This document shows, piece after piece, positions 40,303 through 44,326 of a DNA stretch of 64,000 nucleotides. How positions within the stretch are numbered: the stretch's first letter is position 1; each line of letters begins with the position of its first letter. Both the position numbers and the translations under genes were made by a program. The DNA lies in IMG/VR virus record IMGVR_UViG_3300037258_000514, positions 1 to 64,000 of that record; one strand, given 5' to 3'. This stretch comes from a virus. Below the pieces are notes generated by a model. That model did no database searches, was not told the DNA's origin, and saw only the letters and a list, made by a program, of their open reading frames with translations.

Positions 40303-40740
40303 ATGCTAACAAACGTAGCAGCAGAGCGGCAAAAGAAGACACGATCCGACAGATTAGCTCGTGTAAAAGATCTTCTTCTAACGGGAGCTTCTAACGCTGT
40401 TATTTCAGAAGAACTACATGCAACTGAAAGAACAGTTAAAGCTTACATGCACTCTTTATTTACAATATACAATATCACAGGTAAATGCAAAAGAGTAAAG
40501 TTAGCCGTAAGATTAATTGACGATGTAGAAAAAGAACAGACAAATTTAAATATGACAAAGCTAGAGAAACTAATAATAAATCTTGTTGTAGAAGGAAAAA
40601 TTAATCGACAGATTAGCGAAGAACTCCATTTATCAGAAAATATGGTAAAAAATTATCTCCGCACTATATATGATAAAACAGGAATGGGTTGCAGAACAGA
40701 GTTAGCACTCTGGGCAAAATCAAAAAGTTTCGTTGCTTAG
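40303..40740 (+). CDS. Tandem LuxR-type HTH regulator
   Basis: G.SN..IS.EL...E.TVK.Y...LF and G..N.QIS.EL.LSE.MVKNYL..IY.K.G...R.EL. Confidence 0.85.
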   Translation: MLTNVAAERQKKTRSDRLARVKDLLLTGASNAVISEELHATERTVKAYMHSLFTIYNITGKCKRVKLAVRLIDDVEKEQTNLNMTKLEKLIINLVVEGKINRQISEELHLSENMVKNYLRTIYDKTGMGCRTELALWAKSKSFVA

Positions 40741-40756: not shown

Positions 40757-40802
40757 GGGCTACAAACTGCTCCTGGAAGGGTTTGTAGCCCATTTTTATT
40801 TT
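40757..40802 (+). terminator. Rho-independent terminator
   Basis: GGGCTACAAAC...GTTTGTAGCCC 11-bp stem then ATTTTTATTTT. Confidence 0.75.
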
Positions 40803-40812
40803 AAAGAAAAGC

Positions 40813-40842
40813 TTGACATTGGACCCTCAATTTTTATATTAT
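40813..40842 (+). promoter_or_regulatory. Sigma70-like promoter
   Basis: TTGACA (40813) with TATATT (16-bp spacer) or TATTAT (18-bp spacer). Confidence 0.7.
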
Positions 40843-40848
40843 TACGCT

Positions 40849-40857
40849 ATGACATAG
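40849..40857 (+). other. Two-codon minigene ATG-ACA-TAG in frame with the Pth ORF
   Basis: ATG ACA TAG ATG at 40849-40860, at the predicted transcription start. Confidence 0.6.
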
Positions 40858-41328
40858 ATGAATCAGAACGCCCCGAATCCTGCCGATAAATACGTGTATC
40901 TCTTCGTCCGCCAAGATCTACCAATTCAACACCAAATTGTTCAATCCAATCACGCCACTCATATGATGGCTTCGATTCGCCCGGAAGAGTGCGTGCCCAA
41001 TATCGTACTTATTGGTGTGCCCGACTTAAACGCTCTTCTTCGTGTGGCGCAGAAGCTTAGAGCTAATCAAATTCCTCACTACGAGTGGGTCGAACCAGAT
41101 TTTGATTTAGGTTTTACTTCAATTGCTACTGCTCCGATTACTGGAGAGAAGCGTCAAGTTTTGAAGAACTATAGACTTTATTCCCCTGGAACCGTTGCGG
41201 TAAACGGCGTCGCTTGTATAGACCAGCCAATCCGCGCAGCTTGTCTCTTAACTGAGGACAGGGGAGCCAGTGCCCGAGTAGCTCAACAGCAAGAGCAGCC
41301 CGGTCTAAACGGGATGGCTGAAGGTTAA
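40858..41328 (+). CDS. Peptidyl-tRNA hydrolase (Pth2-like phage family); C-terminal tail overlaps tRNA-like genes
   Basis: YLFVRQDL...QIVQSNHA, IVLIGV, W.EPD...GFTSIATAP, LKNYRL. Confidence 0.75.
   Translation: MNQNAPNPADKYVYLFVRQDLPIQHQIVQSNHATHMMASIRPEECVPNIVLIGVPDLNALLRVAQKLRANQIPHYEWVEPDFDLGFTSIATAPITGEKRQVLKNYRLYSPGTVAVNGVACIDQPIRAACLLTEDRGASARVAQQQEQPGLNGMAEG
41182..41269 (+). ncRNA. Degenerate tRNA-like element inside the Pth ORF
   Basis: Perfect 7-bp TCCCCTG/CAGGGGA + G + CCA; D-like hairpin CCGTT-GCGGTA-AACGG; weak anticodon and T arms. Confidence 0.45.
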
Positions 41329-41347
41329 AGTCCTTCCTTGGGCACCA
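41272..41347 (+). tRNA. tRNA with CUA anticodon (amber suppressor-like)
   Basis: 76 nt; GCCCGAG/CTTGGGC, GCTC/GAGC, CCCG/CGGG, loop GT-CTA-AA, GAAGG-TTAAAGT-CCTTC, ACCA end. Confidence 0.75.
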
Positions 41348-41350
41348 TAT

Positions 41351-41400
41351 AGGGCGGGCTAGCGCGCTAGCTAGGGGCTTCAGTGCCTCCCGCCCTACCA
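41351..41400 (+). ncRNA. 50-nt mini-tRNA-like RNA
   Basis: AGGGCGG/CCGCCCT + ACCA; hairpin GCTAG-CGCG-CTAGC; T-like arm GGGGC-TTCAGT-GCCTC. Confidence 0.55.
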
Positions 41401-41405
41401 GATAT

Positions 41406-41486
41406 GCCGCTGTAGCTCAGATGGGCTGTATCCAGAGCAGCTTCCTTTTAGGGAGCAGGTCGGTGGTTCGATTCCATCCAGCGGCT
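41406..41486 (+). tRNA. tRNA-Lys(UUU)-like with enlarged D-loop, no encoded CCA
   Basis: GCCGCTG/CAGCGGC, GCTC/GAGC, GCTTC-CTTTTAG-GGAGC, GGTGG-TTCGATT-CCATC. Confidence 0.75.
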
Positions 41487-41502
41487 CTCTTTAAAATCGT
41501 GC

Positions 41503-41530
41503 GTCGGTTCGAACCCGACATGGCGCTCCA
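41503..41530 (+). other. Orphan tRNA 3' half (T arm + 3' acceptor strand + CCA)
   Basis: GTCGG-TTCGAAC-CCGAC-ATGGCGC-T-CCA with no adjacent GCGCCAT 5' strand. Confidence 0.65.
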
Positions 41531-42977: not shown

Positions 42978-43175
42978 CTATCGAGCGGCGAGAATTGCTT
43001 TCTTAACTTCGCTTACAGGAACTGCTCCTGTTGCATTCTTCTGTTCAAGCATTAACTTAAAAAAGACTGAGAAGTTTTGATTTAATTCCGCGATCTGGGC
43101 TGTCGTCTCAACACGAAGTGCAGCTTCCATACTGTTTAGTGATTTAAACTGATTTCTAATTTCGTTAGATGTCAT
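42978..43175 (-). CDS. Small hypothetical protein
   Basis: Coupled to neighbours; SD AAGGAG. Confidence 0.55.
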   Translation of the reverse strand: MTSNEIRNQFKSLNSMEAALRVETTAQIAELNQNFSVFFKLMLEQKNATGAVPVSEVKKAILAAR

Positions 43176-44326
43176 TCTAGCTCCTTTGGTAAAACTAATA
43201 GCCCACTGTTTGTATAAACTAAGGAATACATTGTAGTTGATGTTAGTTCAAATGTTGCAGAGCACTTTCTTGTTTCCTCAACACAACATTTTACTAAGTG
43301 CACTCCTGTTCCTGTAAGTTGTTTTGGACCGACATGCTCAACAAGAAATTTAGCGATATTTTCAGCTGTAGGATTAAATGGAGTAATTACAACAGTTTTA
43401 TCAAGAGCCTTAAATGTTTTACTCCAAGGATCTTTCTTCCATATTAAAAATCTATGATCCCAGTTTGTTTCTAGCCATTGGCATAGAAGTGTGTTAATTA
43501 CTCCAAAATCAATTACTCTTCCTATTGAATCTAGAGAAGAAGCAACGCATGTAAAGTGTATTCTATAATTATGTCCATGAGCGTGGGAGCAAGCCCCTTC
43601 GTGTCCATATACTCTATGACCTGAAGAGAAATCGTGATAACGAGTAGCTGTAATTAAACTGTTATGAATTTTCTTAGCTATCCATAAGGGAATATCATGC
43701 TCCCAAAGTATTTCGACTTCCCATCCCTTTGCTTTGATAAAGCTAAGTCTTTGTTTTTCGTATGAAATACTTTTCTCTAAAACTTGTTTATCTACAATTT
43801 TATCAAATCCACATATCGAGCAGTTATGCCAAAAACATCCATTAACTTCGAGAATTTTCTTCTCATTTAGTGAGGCAAAATCTACTTGGTATCTTCCGAT
43901 ATGATATTGCCTTTTCCATCCCTGAAGATATTTCGCAACTAAATCTTCTACTTTTGATGTTTTTCTTCTGCCAACTTCAGGAGAATGAAAAATCCAATGT
44001 GCACCATTTTTTAGTGCTGTTGAAATCTTCTTAGCTATTTCAGGATCTTTAGCTATATTCTTCTCGCCATGCTGATATCCTACTTTAGGCATAGAAGTTC
44101 CGTAAATACCTAAGTATGTTTTTCCTTTTGTTCCGTGTCCTTGTTTATAAACAGGTCCGGATTTTACTTCGTGCGACAATCTTATAATTTTTGTTCCGCA
44201 TCCACAGGAACATTCTACTTCTATGGGTGTTAAGCATAAATTGCATATAAACGATTTAATATCGTTAGCTAGAAAACGGTCCTCGCAGTATTTGCAACTA
44301 CGCTCTTTCGGTGTAGTTAAACGCAT
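43172..44326 (-). CDS. queD: 6-carboxytetrahydropterin synthase QueD fused to an N-terminal Vsr/DUF559-like endonuclease
   Basis: C-terminus GHRV.GHEG.C...HGHNY, IDFG, WDH, NPTAEN, EET; N-terminus CSCGCG, YQVDF, EVNGCFWH, ILWEHD. Confidence 0.85.
   Translation of the reverse strand: MRLTTPKERSCKYCEDRFLANDIKSFICNLCLTPIEVECSCGCGTKIIRLSHEVKSGPVYKQGHGTKGKTYLGIYGTSMPKVGYQHGEKNIAKDPEIAKKISTALKNGAHWIFHSPEVGRRKTSKVEDLVAKYLQGWKRQYHIGRYQVDFASLNEKKILEVNGCFWHNCSICGFDKIVDKQVLEKSISYEKQRLSFIKAKGWEVEILWEHDIPLWIAKKIHNSLITATRYHDFSSGHRVYGHEGACSHAHGHNYRIHFTCVASSLDSIGRVIDFGVINTLLCQWLETNWDHRFLIWKKDPWSKTFKALDKTVVITPFNPTAENIAKFLVEHVGPKQLTGTGVHLVKCCVEETRKCSATFELTSTTMYSLVYTNSGLLVLPKELE

What the first reader, a model, noticed from the sequence alone, without database searches (positions are those of the whole stretch)
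41272..41347. Non-canonical amber (CUA) tRNA in a genome that is not TAG-recoded
Seen: a 76-nt cloverleaf with CTA exactly at positions 34-36 (41305-41307) and encoded CCA. It has G32, a G27.A43 mismatch, no G18G19 in the D-loop and TTA instead of TTC in the T-loop. Long ORFs contain no internal TAG and several genes end in TAG, so the code is standard. Inference: this is a conditional suppressor or a decoy/quality-control tRNA, and the amino acid it carries cannot be read from the sequence.
Basis: partly seen in the sequence, partly recalled or inferred. Interest (0 to 1): 0.75.

Follow-up and report, generated by a model that had tools for sequence, protein, structure and literature searches.

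The report
Phage amber tRNA gating neighbouring hydrolase gene
This is a real stop-codon-reading (UAG) tRNA in a soil phage that otherwise uses the normal genetic code, and its likely job is to read a UAG kept as the third codon of the tRNA-hydrolase-like gene just upstream, a pairing conserved in many phages including cultured ones.

Summary
A 76-nt tRNA with anticodon CUA and encoded CCA lies at 41272-41347 (ARAGORN; Rfam 54.6 bits), with G32, a G27.A43 mismatch, no GG in the D-loop and a TTAAAGT T-loop. The window is the first 64 kb of a 176-kb phage record from soil that uses the standard code: TAG ends about 22% of ORFs.

That gene has a PTH2 (peptidyl-tRNA hydrolase 2) fold, and its ORF runs into the tRNA.

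- In 32 of 35 non-redundant related viral loci, three further metagenomic loci and five cultured phages (Arash, BF, RsoM2USA, ME3, XacN1), the same gene has an early in-frame TAG, usually codon 3, mostly with no usable start codon after it.
- About 30 of those 35 loci carry one to three CUA tRNAs downstream.
- One locus has TGA there and a UCA tRNA.
- 39 family CUA tRNAs show compensatory changes in all 21 stem pairs, with CUA invariant.

Best reading: a dedicated suppressor tRNA that gates translation of its neighbouring gene. A feedback role is inferred only, and nothing is experimental. This scan has already reported the same cassette on other genomes. I found no published description of it.

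The parts
40757..40801 (+). Intrinsic-terminator-like hairpin plus T-run that ends the upstream LuxR/GerE-type HTH gene (40303-40740), so the cassette is a separate transcription unit
   Evidence: stem 40779-40791 plus ATTTTTATTT; the longer GGGCTACAAAC...GTTTGTAGCCC stem is read; Pfam GerE on 40303-40740
40813..40842 (+). Sigma-70-type promoter-like site: TTGACA (40813-40818), 16-18 nt spacer, TATATT/TATTAT. It ends 6-8 nt before the ATG at 40849, so the mRNA would be leaderless or nearly so
   Evidence: 11 of 12 matches; the same TTGACA-N17-TAnnnT-N4-9-ATG layout is seen in L001, L002, L004, L007 and many others
40849..40857 (+). True start of the PTH2-like gene: ATG (40849-51) ACA (40852-54) TAG (40855-57). 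This is the programmed amber codon, the candidate client of the tRNA. Here it is followed by ATG (40858-60), a possible bypass start
   Evidence: conserved ATG-NNN-TAG-(A/G)TN in relatives
40858..41328 (+). PTH2-fold (peptidyl-tRNA-hydrolase-2-like) gene. The conserved core is 40879-41199. The ORF has no stop before the tRNA and ends at a TAA inside the tRNA's T-loop
   Evidence: AF2 pLDDT 90.5; Foldseek PDB top hits Bit1/Pth2 at probability 1.0, TM about 0.7; weak PF01981; family of 2,348 clusters; no stop before the tRNA in 17 of 17 abutting loci
41272..41347 (+). tRNA(CUA), the amber-reading tRNA that is the finding itself, with encoded CCA
   Evidence: family covariation
41350..41400 (+). 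Y-shaped mini tRNA-like element: an 8-9 bp closing stem, two small hairpins (the second resembles a T-arm), then CCA
   Evidence: fold -29.3 kcal/mol, z -2.0; the same architecture ending N-CCA is found in L001, L002, L014, L015, L018 and L025, with compensatory changes in the closing stem; no Rfam match
41406..41487 (+). Second cassette tRNA: anticodon loop CUUUUAG (UUU) by the Rfam alignment, U73, no encoded CCA, and a 16-nt D-loop with an insertion. ARAGORN misreads it as Trp(CCA)
   Evidence: 79% identical to the cassette UUU-tRNA of L011; shares its D-loop insertion with L036 4713-4797
41503..41530 (+). tRNA 3'-half-like remnant: a T-arm (GTCGG TTCGAAC CCGAC), a 7-nt acceptor 3' strand, then T-CCA, with no matching 5' half
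   Evidence: read; not scored by Rfam

Best explanation
The tRNA is a functional, selected amber (UAG) suppressor. It belongs to a compact, mobile, self-contained cassette at about 40813-41530. The cassette consists of a strong promoter, a nearly leaderless mRNA that begins AUG-ACA-UAG, a PTH2-fold (peptidyl-tRNA-hydrolase-like) gene, and directly behind it on the same transcript the tRNA(CUA), a CCA-ended mini tRNA-like element and a UUU-anticodon tRNA. The phage otherwise uses the standard code. The tRNA's conserved client is the UAG at codon 3 of the adjacent gene. Ribosomes that start at the 5' AUG stop after two residues unless charged tRNA(CUA) outcompetes RF1, so the hydrolase-like protein is made only when, and in proportion as, the cassette's own tRNA is matured and aminoacylated.

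Shown by comparison: the programmed early TAG, its linkage with CUA tRNAs, one TGA/UCA switch, and selection on the tRNA.

Inferred: readthrough actually occurs. Also inferred is that the loop is a governor: an enzyme that cleaves acyl or peptidyl esters at tRNA 3' ends, whose own synthesis depends on a charged reporter tRNA, would limit itself, or limit suppression, by negative feedback. This is analogous in logic to RF2 autoregulation. In this particular phage the TAG is followed by ATG, so the gate may be leaky.
For: 1. The tRNA is real and well scored.
2. CUA and CCA are invariant, and all 21 stem pairs show compensatory double changes across 39 family tRNAs, including one from the cultured phage Arash.
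3. The adjacent gene reads ATG ACA TAG ATG in frame with a PTH2-fold domain.
4. The first in-frame stop upstream of the conserved domain is TAG in 36 of 39 IMG/VR loci (32 of 35 non-redundant). In 25 of these 35 it is exactly ATG/GTG-NNN-TAG, and it is always followed by a purine. In most loci no ATG/GTG/TTG lies between the TAG and the conserved core.
5. The same holds in L004 (conjugative-element context), L006 and L007, and in the cultured phages Arash, BF and RsoM2USA and XacN1 and ME3.
6. In the Shine-Dalgarno-led class, AGGAG sits at normal spacing before the upstream ATG, so ribosomes are positioned to meet the TAG.
7. CUA tRNAs lie downstream on the same strand in about 30 of 35 loci, 13 or more of them starting within 60 nt of the gene.
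8. L035 has TGA at the gate and a tRNA(UCA) downstream.
9. Public gene calls for the family are N-terminally truncated in 82 of 189 cases, and the gene is unannotated or truncated in BF, RsoM2USA and Arash. That is the footprint of a hidden start.
10. A genome-wide scan finds no other convincing early-TAG client, and ordinary TAG stops behave like the other stops.
Against: - Nothing is experimental. No RNA data exist for this phage.
- Charging and the inserted residue are unknown.
- TAG terminates 62-66 ordinary genes of this phage, so an efficient suppressor would extend them by a median of 9 residues. There is no enrichment of back-up stops (p = 0.70).
- In this window the codon after the TAG is ATG, so termination followed by reinitiation could bypass the gate.
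- This tRNA is the family outlier at position 32 (G) and has a mismatched 27:43 pair and a non-canonical elbow, so it may be a weak decoder.
- Stop/anticodon covariation rests on one locus in my sample.
- Four non-redundant loci have the TAG but no CUA tRNA in the DNA I hold. L028 and L037 carry a tRNA with an aberrant anticodon loop at the abutting position, and L009 and L040 are cut by a contig end soon after the gene.
- The Lys of the Pth2 'GK' motif is not conserved, so hydrolase activity is unproven. The feedback step is pure inference.
Confidence: 0.62

Rival explanations
1. General-purpose suppressor, or a first step toward TAG recoding. On this view the phage acquired a CUA tRNA as in the Borges et al. 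model (suppressor acquisition precedes recoding), or uses it to read through host or phage TAG stops broadly. The early TAG in the neighbouring gene would be one early recoded site rather than the purpose of the tRNA.
For: Standard-code relatives of recoded phages can carry suppressor tRNAs (10.1101/2021.08.26.457843). Several carriers are huge phages, some with 2-3 different CUA tRNAs, which is more than one gate should need. In-frame ORF pairs across TAG are slightly more frequent than across TGA or TAA (14 of 66 against 27 of 234).
Against: TAG is not depleted (22% of stops, 40% GC). The best TAG junction is DNA polymerase followed by ThyX, which are separate genes elsewhere. Readthrough extensions after TAG do not differ from those after other stops. 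The same single gene carries the TAG at the same position in lineages 30-65% identical, in GC contexts from 40 to 58%, and on a conjugative element. That is conservation, not a transient state. No RF2 or synthetase 'code-change module' was found.
Confidence: 0.12
2. Anti-defence tRNA island. On this view the CUA tRNA, the UUU tRNA with U73, the tRNAs with odd anticodon loops and the CCA-ended mini-helix are decoys or replacement substrates for host toxins that attack tRNA anticodon loops or 3' ends, and the PTH2-like enzyme repairs modified tRNA ends. AUG-ACA-UAG would then be a two-codon start-stop mini-ORF that loads ribosomes for reinitiation, not a suppression site.
For: The cassette occurs in phage early or accessory regions next to Acb3 (L003) and in a relaxase/coupling-protein element (L004). 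A UUU-anticodon tRNA is a recurrent companion; from my own knowledge, tRNA-Lys(UUU) is the target of PrrC and PARIS. Many companions have 6- or 8-nt loops that could not decode normally. In the window and L010 the codon after the TAG is ATG, and in many loci it is ATT or ATC, which are weak starts.
Against: If the stop were only a mini-ORF terminator, TAA and TGA should serve equally, yet TAG is used in 32 of 35 loci, and the one TGA locus carries a UCA tRNA. In 15 or more loci the next codon is GTT, GTC, GTA, GAT, GGG, AAC, AAT or ACC, none of which is a start codon. No natural tRNA has a CUA anticodon for a decoy to mimic. The CUA anticodon is invariant while the rest of the tRNA varies.
Confidence: 0.15
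3. Decaying relic. On this view the gate has been bypassed in this particular phage (TAG-ATG), and the tRNA, with G32, G27.A43, an odd elbow and A73, is drifting toward a pseudogene.
For: The window tRNA is the only one of 39 with G32. ATG directly follows the TAG here. In L010, the other TAG-ATG locus, the abutting tRNA has decayed to 26.3 bits with no CCA. The cassette also holds a tRNA 3'-half remnant (41503-41530).
Against: It scores 54.6 bits, with intact acceptor, D and T stems, CCA and U33. The odd elbow is a shared subclass trait, since the identical D-loop AACAGCAA occurs in L036, and weak 27:43 pairs are common in the family (16 of 39). L010 still keeps a CUA tRNA 550 nt downstream.
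Confidence: 0.08

Closest known systems
Stop-codon-recoded phages with their own suppressor tRNAs (TAG read as Gln, 'code 15': crAss-like, Lak and others; Borges et al., 10.1101/2021.08.26.457843; PMC9523058)
   Same: A phage-encoded tRNA(CUA) in a host presumed to use the standard code. In-frame TAG in a phage gene that needs that tRNA. The tRNA is proposed to act as a translational switch.
   Different: Here TAG remains an ordinary stop for about 22% of genes, and only one gene carries it, always within the first few codons. No RF2 or synthetase module is present. The client is a tRNA-hydrolase-like gene physically joined to the tRNA, not late or lysis genes.
Orphan CUA suppressor tRNAs of standard-code jumbo phages, e.g. 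Xanthomonas phage XacN1 (PMC5852040)
   Same: This is the same situation, and by my check the same cassette. XacN1 has two CUA tRNAs, a standard code and a homologue of this gene.
   Different: [quoted passage not shown] I find SD-ATG-AAG-TAG at the start of XacN1 ORF364 (an HD-domain plus PTH2-like fusion), five codons before the annotated ATG.
prfB (RF2) autoregulation through an early in-frame UGA (own knowledge)
   Same: An early in-frame stop codon in the gene of a translation factor acts as a sensor of the balance between termination and an alternative decoding event. The logic is a feedback loop.
   Different: RF2 uses a +1 frameshift and senses its own product directly. Here the frame is kept, a dedicated suppressor tRNA is the alternative decoder, and the feedback link from protein to tRNA is not shown.
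Pth2 / Bit1 peptidyl-tRNA hydrolases (PF01981; PDB 1q7s, 2zv3, 1wn2, 3erj, 1xty)
   Same: The same alpha/beta fold (Foldseek probability 1.0, TM about 0.7). Shared RxDL...VQSxHA and D-x-G-x-T-like motifs.
   Different: Sequence similarity is below Pfam's threshold (16.6 against 23 bits). The Lys of the GK motif is replaced. The family is almost wholly viral, and its activity and substrate are unknown.
Lambda bar minigenes and Pth (own knowledge)
   Same: A two-codon ORF followed by a stop (AUG-NNN-stop), in a setting linked to peptidyl-tRNA hydrolysis. Very short ORFs terminate poorly and shed peptidyl-tRNA.
   Different: The bar minigenes are stand-alone and toxic when Pth is limiting. Here the mini-ORF is in frame with, and continuous with, the hydrolase-like gene, and it comes with a cognate suppressor tRNA.

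Membership tests
tRNA (Rfam RF00005) | Cloverleaf scoring above the curated gathering score | tested here: met
   54.6 bits against 29, E 5.9e-10, full model 1-71; ARAGORN agrees
tRNA (Rfam RF00005) | 7-nt anticodon loop with U33 and a purine at position 37 | tested here: met
   Loop GUCUAAA: U33, C34-U35-A36, A37. G32 is unusual: it is the only such case among 39 family members.
tRNA (Rfam RF00005) | Canonical elbow: G18-G19 in the D-loop pairing with psi55-C56 of a T54-psi55-C56 T-loop | tested here: not met
   D-loop AACAGCAA, T-loop TTAAAGT. The same deviation recurs as a subclass in L033, L034, L036 and L044, so it is a trait of the family rather than damage.
Functional amber suppressor tRNA | Anticodon CUA conserved in orthologous context, with selection on the stems | tested here: met
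   CUA invariant in 39 of 39; 21 of 21 pairs show compensatory double changes
Functional amber suppressor tRNA | A conserved in-frame UAG in a gene that needs it | tested here: met
   TAG at codon 3 of the adjacent gene here, and in 32 of 35 non-redundant relatives plus five cultured phages
Functional amber suppressor tRNA | Processed, aminoacylated, and inserting a residue at UAG | not testable with these tools
   Only one DNA run holds the sequence. Needs tRNA-seq or acid gels, a reporter and mass spectrometry.
tRNA-Pyl (pyrrolysine system) | Pyl-type architecture: 3-nt variable loop, 6-bp anticodon stem, very small D-loop, one base between acceptor and D stems (own knowledge) | tested here: not met
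   5-nt variable loop, 5-position anticodon stem with a mismatch, 8-nt D-loop, two bases (U8, A9) between the stems. ARAGORN's 'Pyl' label reflects the anticodon alone.
tRNA-Pyl (pyrrolysine system) | PylS synthetase encoded alongside | tested here: not met
   No TIGR02367 match in the 176-kb record; the record is about 86% complete
TAG-recoded ('code 15') phage | Many genes with in-frame TAG; TAG rare or absent as a stop; coding density rises when TAG is read as sense | tested here: not met
   TAG ends 66 of 300 ORFs; coverage 0.902 (standard code) against 0.911 (TAG read through); no excess of early TAGs
Pth2 peptidyl-tRNA hydrolase (PF01981) | Sequence score above Pfam's gathering threshold | tested here: not met
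   16.6 bits against 23 for the window protein; 14 of 30 members hit weakly, best E 0.0011
Pth2 peptidyl-tRNA hydrolase (PF01981) | Pth2 fold | tested here: met
   AF2 pLDDT 90.5, pTM 0.83. The top 10 PDB hits are all Pth2/Bit1 or Pth2-like, probability 1.0, TM 0.63-0.72.
Pth2 peptidyl-tRNA hydrolase (PF01981) | Catalytic residues and esterase activity on peptidyl-tRNA | tested here: inconclusive
   The invariant D81, G85 and T91 and the near-invariant H32 parallel Pth2 motifs. The GK-motif Lys aligns with Gln/His. Activity was not tested.

The most novel reading that the evidence does not exclude
The cassette is a natural, portable tRNA-operated feedback circuit. An enzyme that strips acyl or peptidyl groups from tRNA 3' ends is translated only through a UAG read by its own co-transcribed suppressor tRNA. 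The charged state of that reporter tRNA therefore sets the enzyme's level, and the enzyme in turn sets the charged state. The missing stop codon before the tRNA would add a second layer: excision of the tRNA by RNase P would turn the message into a non-stop mRNA, making tRNA maturation and protein synthesis compete for the same transcript.
Probability: 0.25. Interest if true: 0.85.

Novelty: new variant of a known kind. Interest (0 to 1): 0.7.

Why it matters
1. It offers a concrete, testable answer to a published puzzle: why phages that use the standard code carry amber suppressor tRNAs with no detectable targets (XacN1, PMC5852040). The target sits at the start of a gene, not at an end.
2. 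If readthrough is confirmed, this is a natural single-gene, tRNA-gated translational switch. It is widespread (a protein family of over 2,000 clusters at 50% identity) and present in culturable phages of Salmonella, Serratia, Acinetobacter, Ralstonia and Xanthomonas, so ordinary genetics can address it.
3. It exposes systematic annotation errors. The gene is missed or N-terminally truncated (82 of 189 public calls; unannotated in BF and RsoM2USA), and the tRNA is mislabelled (tRNA-Phe in Arash, 'Pyl' by ARAGORN).
4. Compact tRNAs that coexist with a standard-code host, some with unusual elbows, may interest genetic-code engineers.

Tried and rejected
- Nucleotide search of 38.5-46 kb against 50,697 phage records found no match, so this is a new lineage. 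The DNA polymerase is only about 30% identical to Edwardsiella and Vibrio phage polymerases.
- An exact-pattern search for the anticodon arm in IMG/VR gave 0 hits.
- The cellular-genome scan failed with the alignment (no pattern conserved enough) and found no relative with the single protein. The host remains unknown.
- PLSDB plasmids: no match.
- Sequencing runs: one soil-metagenome DNA run, possibly the source of the record, and no RNA holder listed. Expression was therefore not examined, and read laying was not used.
- Readthrough fusion at the 58710 TAG junction was rejected: it is DNA polymerase I followed by ThyX, which are separate genes elsewhere. The 36497 junction (a 101-aa ORF followed by a 497-aa ORF, neither with a Pfam or PHROG hit) was left unresolved.
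- Back-up stops or extensions after TAG do not differ from the other stops.
- Other early-TAG clients in the genome: none convincing (TAA 34, TAG 23, TGA 17 candidates).
- A UAG-plus-RGPP/RAPP arrest leader, described in earlier notes of this scan, is absent from this phage.
- A release factor, GlnRS/GluRS-type and class-IIb synthetases, a CCA-adding enzyme, an HD domain, PylS and a second PTH2-like gene were not found. The only hit was a short GGQ-motif ORF.
- Derivation from one of the phage's own 30 array tRNAs was rejected: identity is 68% at most, which is background level.
- The YTCTAAR pattern search in L010's genome was uninformative because the pattern is too short.
- Complex prediction was not used, because there is no protein-protein claim.
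Full report
**1. What is there.** ARAGORN finds two tRNAs in the window: 41272-41347 (+, anticodon cta at position 34) and 41406-41487. Rfam's tRNA model scores them 54.6 and 53.2 bits against a threshold of 29.
- G32 and a G27.A43 mismatch at the top of the anticodon stem;
- D-loop AACAGCAA, with no GG;
- T-loop TTAAAGT, with A56;
- A73 and an encoded CCA.

The window is bases 1-64000 of a 175,952-bp IMG/VR virus record that CheckV puts at about 86% complete. The only sequencing run that holds it is a soil metagenome. The phage carries 32 tRNAs, 30 of them in an array at 81-99 kb on the other strand. The CUA tRNA and its neighbour sit apart from that array, at the point where the + strand structural module meets the - strand replication module.

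**2. The code is standard.** On the whole record, standard-code ORFs cover 0.90 of the sequence. Stops are TAA 144, TAG 66 and TGA 90. Reading TAG through raises coverage only to 0.911.
- In-frame ORF pairs across a stop occur for all three stops: TAG 14, TGA 8, TAA 19.
- The most suggestive TAG junction (58710) is DNA polymerase I followed by ThyX, which are separate genes in other phages.
- Readthrough extensions after TAG (median 9 codons) do not differ from those after the other stops (Mann-Whitney p = 0.70).
- I found no release factor, no GlnRS/GluRS-type or class-IIb synthetase, no PylS and no CCA-adding enzyme.

**3. The exception is next door.** The ORF called at 40858-41328 runs into the tRNA. 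Its conserved core (40879-41199) has no Pfam hit at standard thresholds. With an alignment of 30 relatives it folds at pLDDT 90.5. Its best PDB matches are all Pth2/Bit1 peptidyl-tRNA hydrolases or Pth2-like proteins (probability 1.0, TM about 0.7). Three weaker results agree: sub-threshold PF01981 hits in 14 of 30 members, a PDB Pth2 profile hit over the RxDL...VQSxHA motif, and Atlas neighbours that are viral clusters partly carrying PF01981.

Prompted by earlier notes of this scan, I read the sequence upstream. The gene really begins ATG(40849) ACA TAG(40855-57) ATG(40858). It is preceded by TTGACA-N16-TATATT, which ends 8 nt before the first ATG, so the mRNA is nearly leaderless. Upstream of that lies the terminator of the previous gene. 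No terminator was predicted between the gene and the tRNAs.

**4. The arrangement is conserved.** Relatives of the gene were fetched from IMG/VR, from metagenome contigs and from cultured phages.
- **Early TAG in viral loci.** In 36 of 39 IMG/VR loci (32 of 35 after removing duplicates), the first in-frame stop upstream of the conserved domain is TAG.
- **Position and context.** In 25 of the 35 it is exactly ATG/GTG-NNN-TAG. In six others the ATG lies 5-9 codons upstream. The base after the TAG is always a purine, and there is usually no start codon before the conserved core.
- **Two leader types.** One class is leaderless behind TTGACA-N17-TAnnnT. The other has an AGGAG Shine-Dalgarno site at normal spacing from the upstream ATG. 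In both, ribosomes are placed so that they meet the TAG.
- **Other contexts.** The same start is found in L004 (next to a TrwC relaxase and a TraG/TrwB coupling protein), L006 and L007.
- **Cultured phages.** Salmonella phage Arash has ATG CTG TAG. Serratia phage BF has ATG ACG CAC TAG. Ralstonia phage RsoM2USA has ATG TTG TAG. Acinetobacter phage ME3 has ATG ACT TAG, with a tRNA annotated 'anticodon CTA' about 450 nt upstream. Xanthomonas phage XacN1 has ATG AAG TAG at the head of an HD-domain plus PTH2-like fusion.
- **Annotation footprint.** GenBank leaves the gene unannotated in BF and RsoM2USA, truncates it in Arash, starts it after the TAG in XacN1, and labels Arash's CUA tRNA 'tRNA-Phe'. 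Among 189 public gene calls of the family, 50 start inside the conserved core and 32 start exactly at the first strand.
- **Family size.** The family has 2,348 clusters (50% identity) at E <= 1e-3.

**5. Link with CUA tRNAs.** ARAGORN finds one to three CUA tRNAs downstream on the same strand in most loci, often starting 0-60 nt after the gene. Rfam adds CUA tRNAs that ARAGORN missed in L010, L013, L016 and L026. That gives about 30 of 35 non-redundant loci.
- L035 has TGA at the gate and a tRNA(UCA) downstream.
- An alignment of 39 CUA tRNAs shows CUA and CCA invariant, with compensatory double changes in all 21 stem pairs.
Weak 27:43 pairs occur in 16 of 39 (G.U 10, G.A 4, G.G 2). An elbow without GG and with an A-rich T-loop defines a subclass, and L036 has the identical D-loop. 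G32 is unique to the window.
- Discriminators vary (G, U, A, C). Phages with several CUA tRNAs hold distinct types, so the amino acid cannot be inferred. Since the residue falls in a non-conserved N-terminal stretch, it may not matter.
- The window tRNA is no closer to the phage's own array tRNAs (68% at most) than to cassette tRNAs of other phages (71-75%). The cassette travels as a unit.

**6. Interpretation.** The simplest account of a conserved early TAG, a cognate tRNA on the same transcript and an otherwise standard code is a gene-specific translational gate: the PTH2-like protein is made only when the cassette's tRNA reads the UAG. Reinitiation after a two-codon mini-ORF is the main alternative. 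It does not explain the near-exclusive use of TAG, the TGA/UCA pair, or the many loci where the next codon (GTT, GTC, GTA, GAT, GGG, AAC, AAT, ACC) cannot start translation.

Why gate a tRNA-ester hydrolase with a tRNA? My preferred, unproven answer is negative feedback. The charged suppressor acts as a reporter of acyl-tRNA status or of suppression strength, and the enzyme acts on that status. For this window there are caveats. ATG follows the TAG, so a bypass is possible. The tRNA has G32. L010, the other TAG-ATG locus, has a decayed abutting tRNA, although it keeps another CUA tRNA downstream.

**7. Relation to what is known.** Phage suppressor tRNAs are known from recoded phages. In standard-code phages they are treated as precursors of recoding or as orphans. 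[quoted passage not shown] Two full-text searches found no description of an early amber in a Pth2-like gene.

This scan has reported the same cassette before on other genomes. A later check there rated the observation as sound and the bold 'self-contained switch' reading at about 20 in 100. My independent tests on this window and its relatives agree with the observation. They also add the XacN1 and ME3 cases, the rule that the ORF has no stop before the tRNA, and the annotation footprint. This window has the minimal form of the cassette: no RGPP/RAPP leader and no HD gene.

**8. Unexplained.**
- In all 17 loci where a tRNA abuts the gene, the ORF's first stop lies inside or beyond the tRNA. 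RNase P processing would therefore leave a non-stop message.
- A Y-shaped, CCA-ended mini tRNA-like element follows the first CUA tRNA here and in at least five relatives.
- The companion tRNAs (UUU anticodon with U73, 6- or 8-nt loops, inserted second anticodon arms) are not ordinary decoders.

Noticed in passing
window 41350-41400: A Y-shaped element lies directly after the CUA tRNA: an 8-9 bp closing stem, two small hairpins (the second resembles a T-arm), then CCA. The same design ending in N-CCA follows the first CUA tRNA in L001/L008, L002/L015, L014, L018 and L025, with different stem sequences. Rfam does not recognise it.
   Followed up: partly
window 41406-41487: The second tRNA is misread by ARAGORN as Trp(CCA). 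The Rfam alignment gives anticodon loop CUUUUAG (UUU), U73, no encoded CCA and a 16-nt D-loop with an insertion. It is 79% identical to the cassette UUU-tRNA of L011, and L036 4713-4797 has the same D-loop insertion. UUU-anticodon tRNAs with U73 are recurrent companions of the CUA tRNAs.
   Followed up: partly
window 40858-41328 (and 16 related loci): The PTH2-like ORF never has a stop codon before an abutting tRNA (17 of 17 loci). Its first stop lies inside or beyond the tRNA, so 5' processing of the tRNA would create a non-stop mRNA.
   Followed up: partly
window 41503-41530: A tRNA 3'-half-like remnant (T-arm GTCGG-TTCGAAC-CCGAC, 7-nt acceptor strand, T, CCA) with no 5' half, just before the convergent helicase gene.
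   Followed up: no
L010 3360-3466; L013 2946-3051; L021 3002-3099: CUA tRNAs carrying a roughly 30-nt insertion after the anticodon arm. The insertion repeats 'AGAGCA' plus a second anticodon-arm-like hairpin. In L021 both arms read CUA. ARAGORN misses or mislabels these tRNAs.
   Followed up: no
L035 1685-1950; L037 1005-1294: Phage-encoded permuted tmRNA genes (RF04321, 78 and 101 bits) lie about 1 kb upstream of the PTH2-like gene in two related phages.
   Followed up: no
own genome G000:C1:92478-92651 (-), outside the window: A short ORF with a GGQ motif (RF-1/ArfB-like domain, 31.9 bits, below the cut-off of 35), interrupted by an in-frame TAA, lies inside the tRNA array.
   Followed up: partly
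L047 (Salmonella phage Arash OQ632216), L048 (Serratia phage BF KY630187), L049 (Ralstonia phage RsoM2USA MG752970), L050 (XacN1 AP018399): Public annotation errors caused by the early TAG. The gene is unannotated in BF and RsoM2USA, truncated to 50 aa in Arash, and started after the TAG in XacN1. Arash's CUA tRNA is labelled tRNA-Phe. XacN1 ORF364 fuses an HD-type domain to the PTH2-like domain.
   Followed up: yes
window 43172-44326 (-): A QueD-like 6-pyruvoyl-tetrahydropterin synthase domain is fused to a DUF559/endonuclease-like N-terminal part. This hints at a 7-deazaguanine pathway in this phage.
   Followed up: no
own genome G000:C1:84616-84690 (-), outside the window: One tRNA of the main array is reported by ARAGORN with a 4-base anticodon (cgat), meaning an 8-nt anticodon loop.
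   Followed up: no
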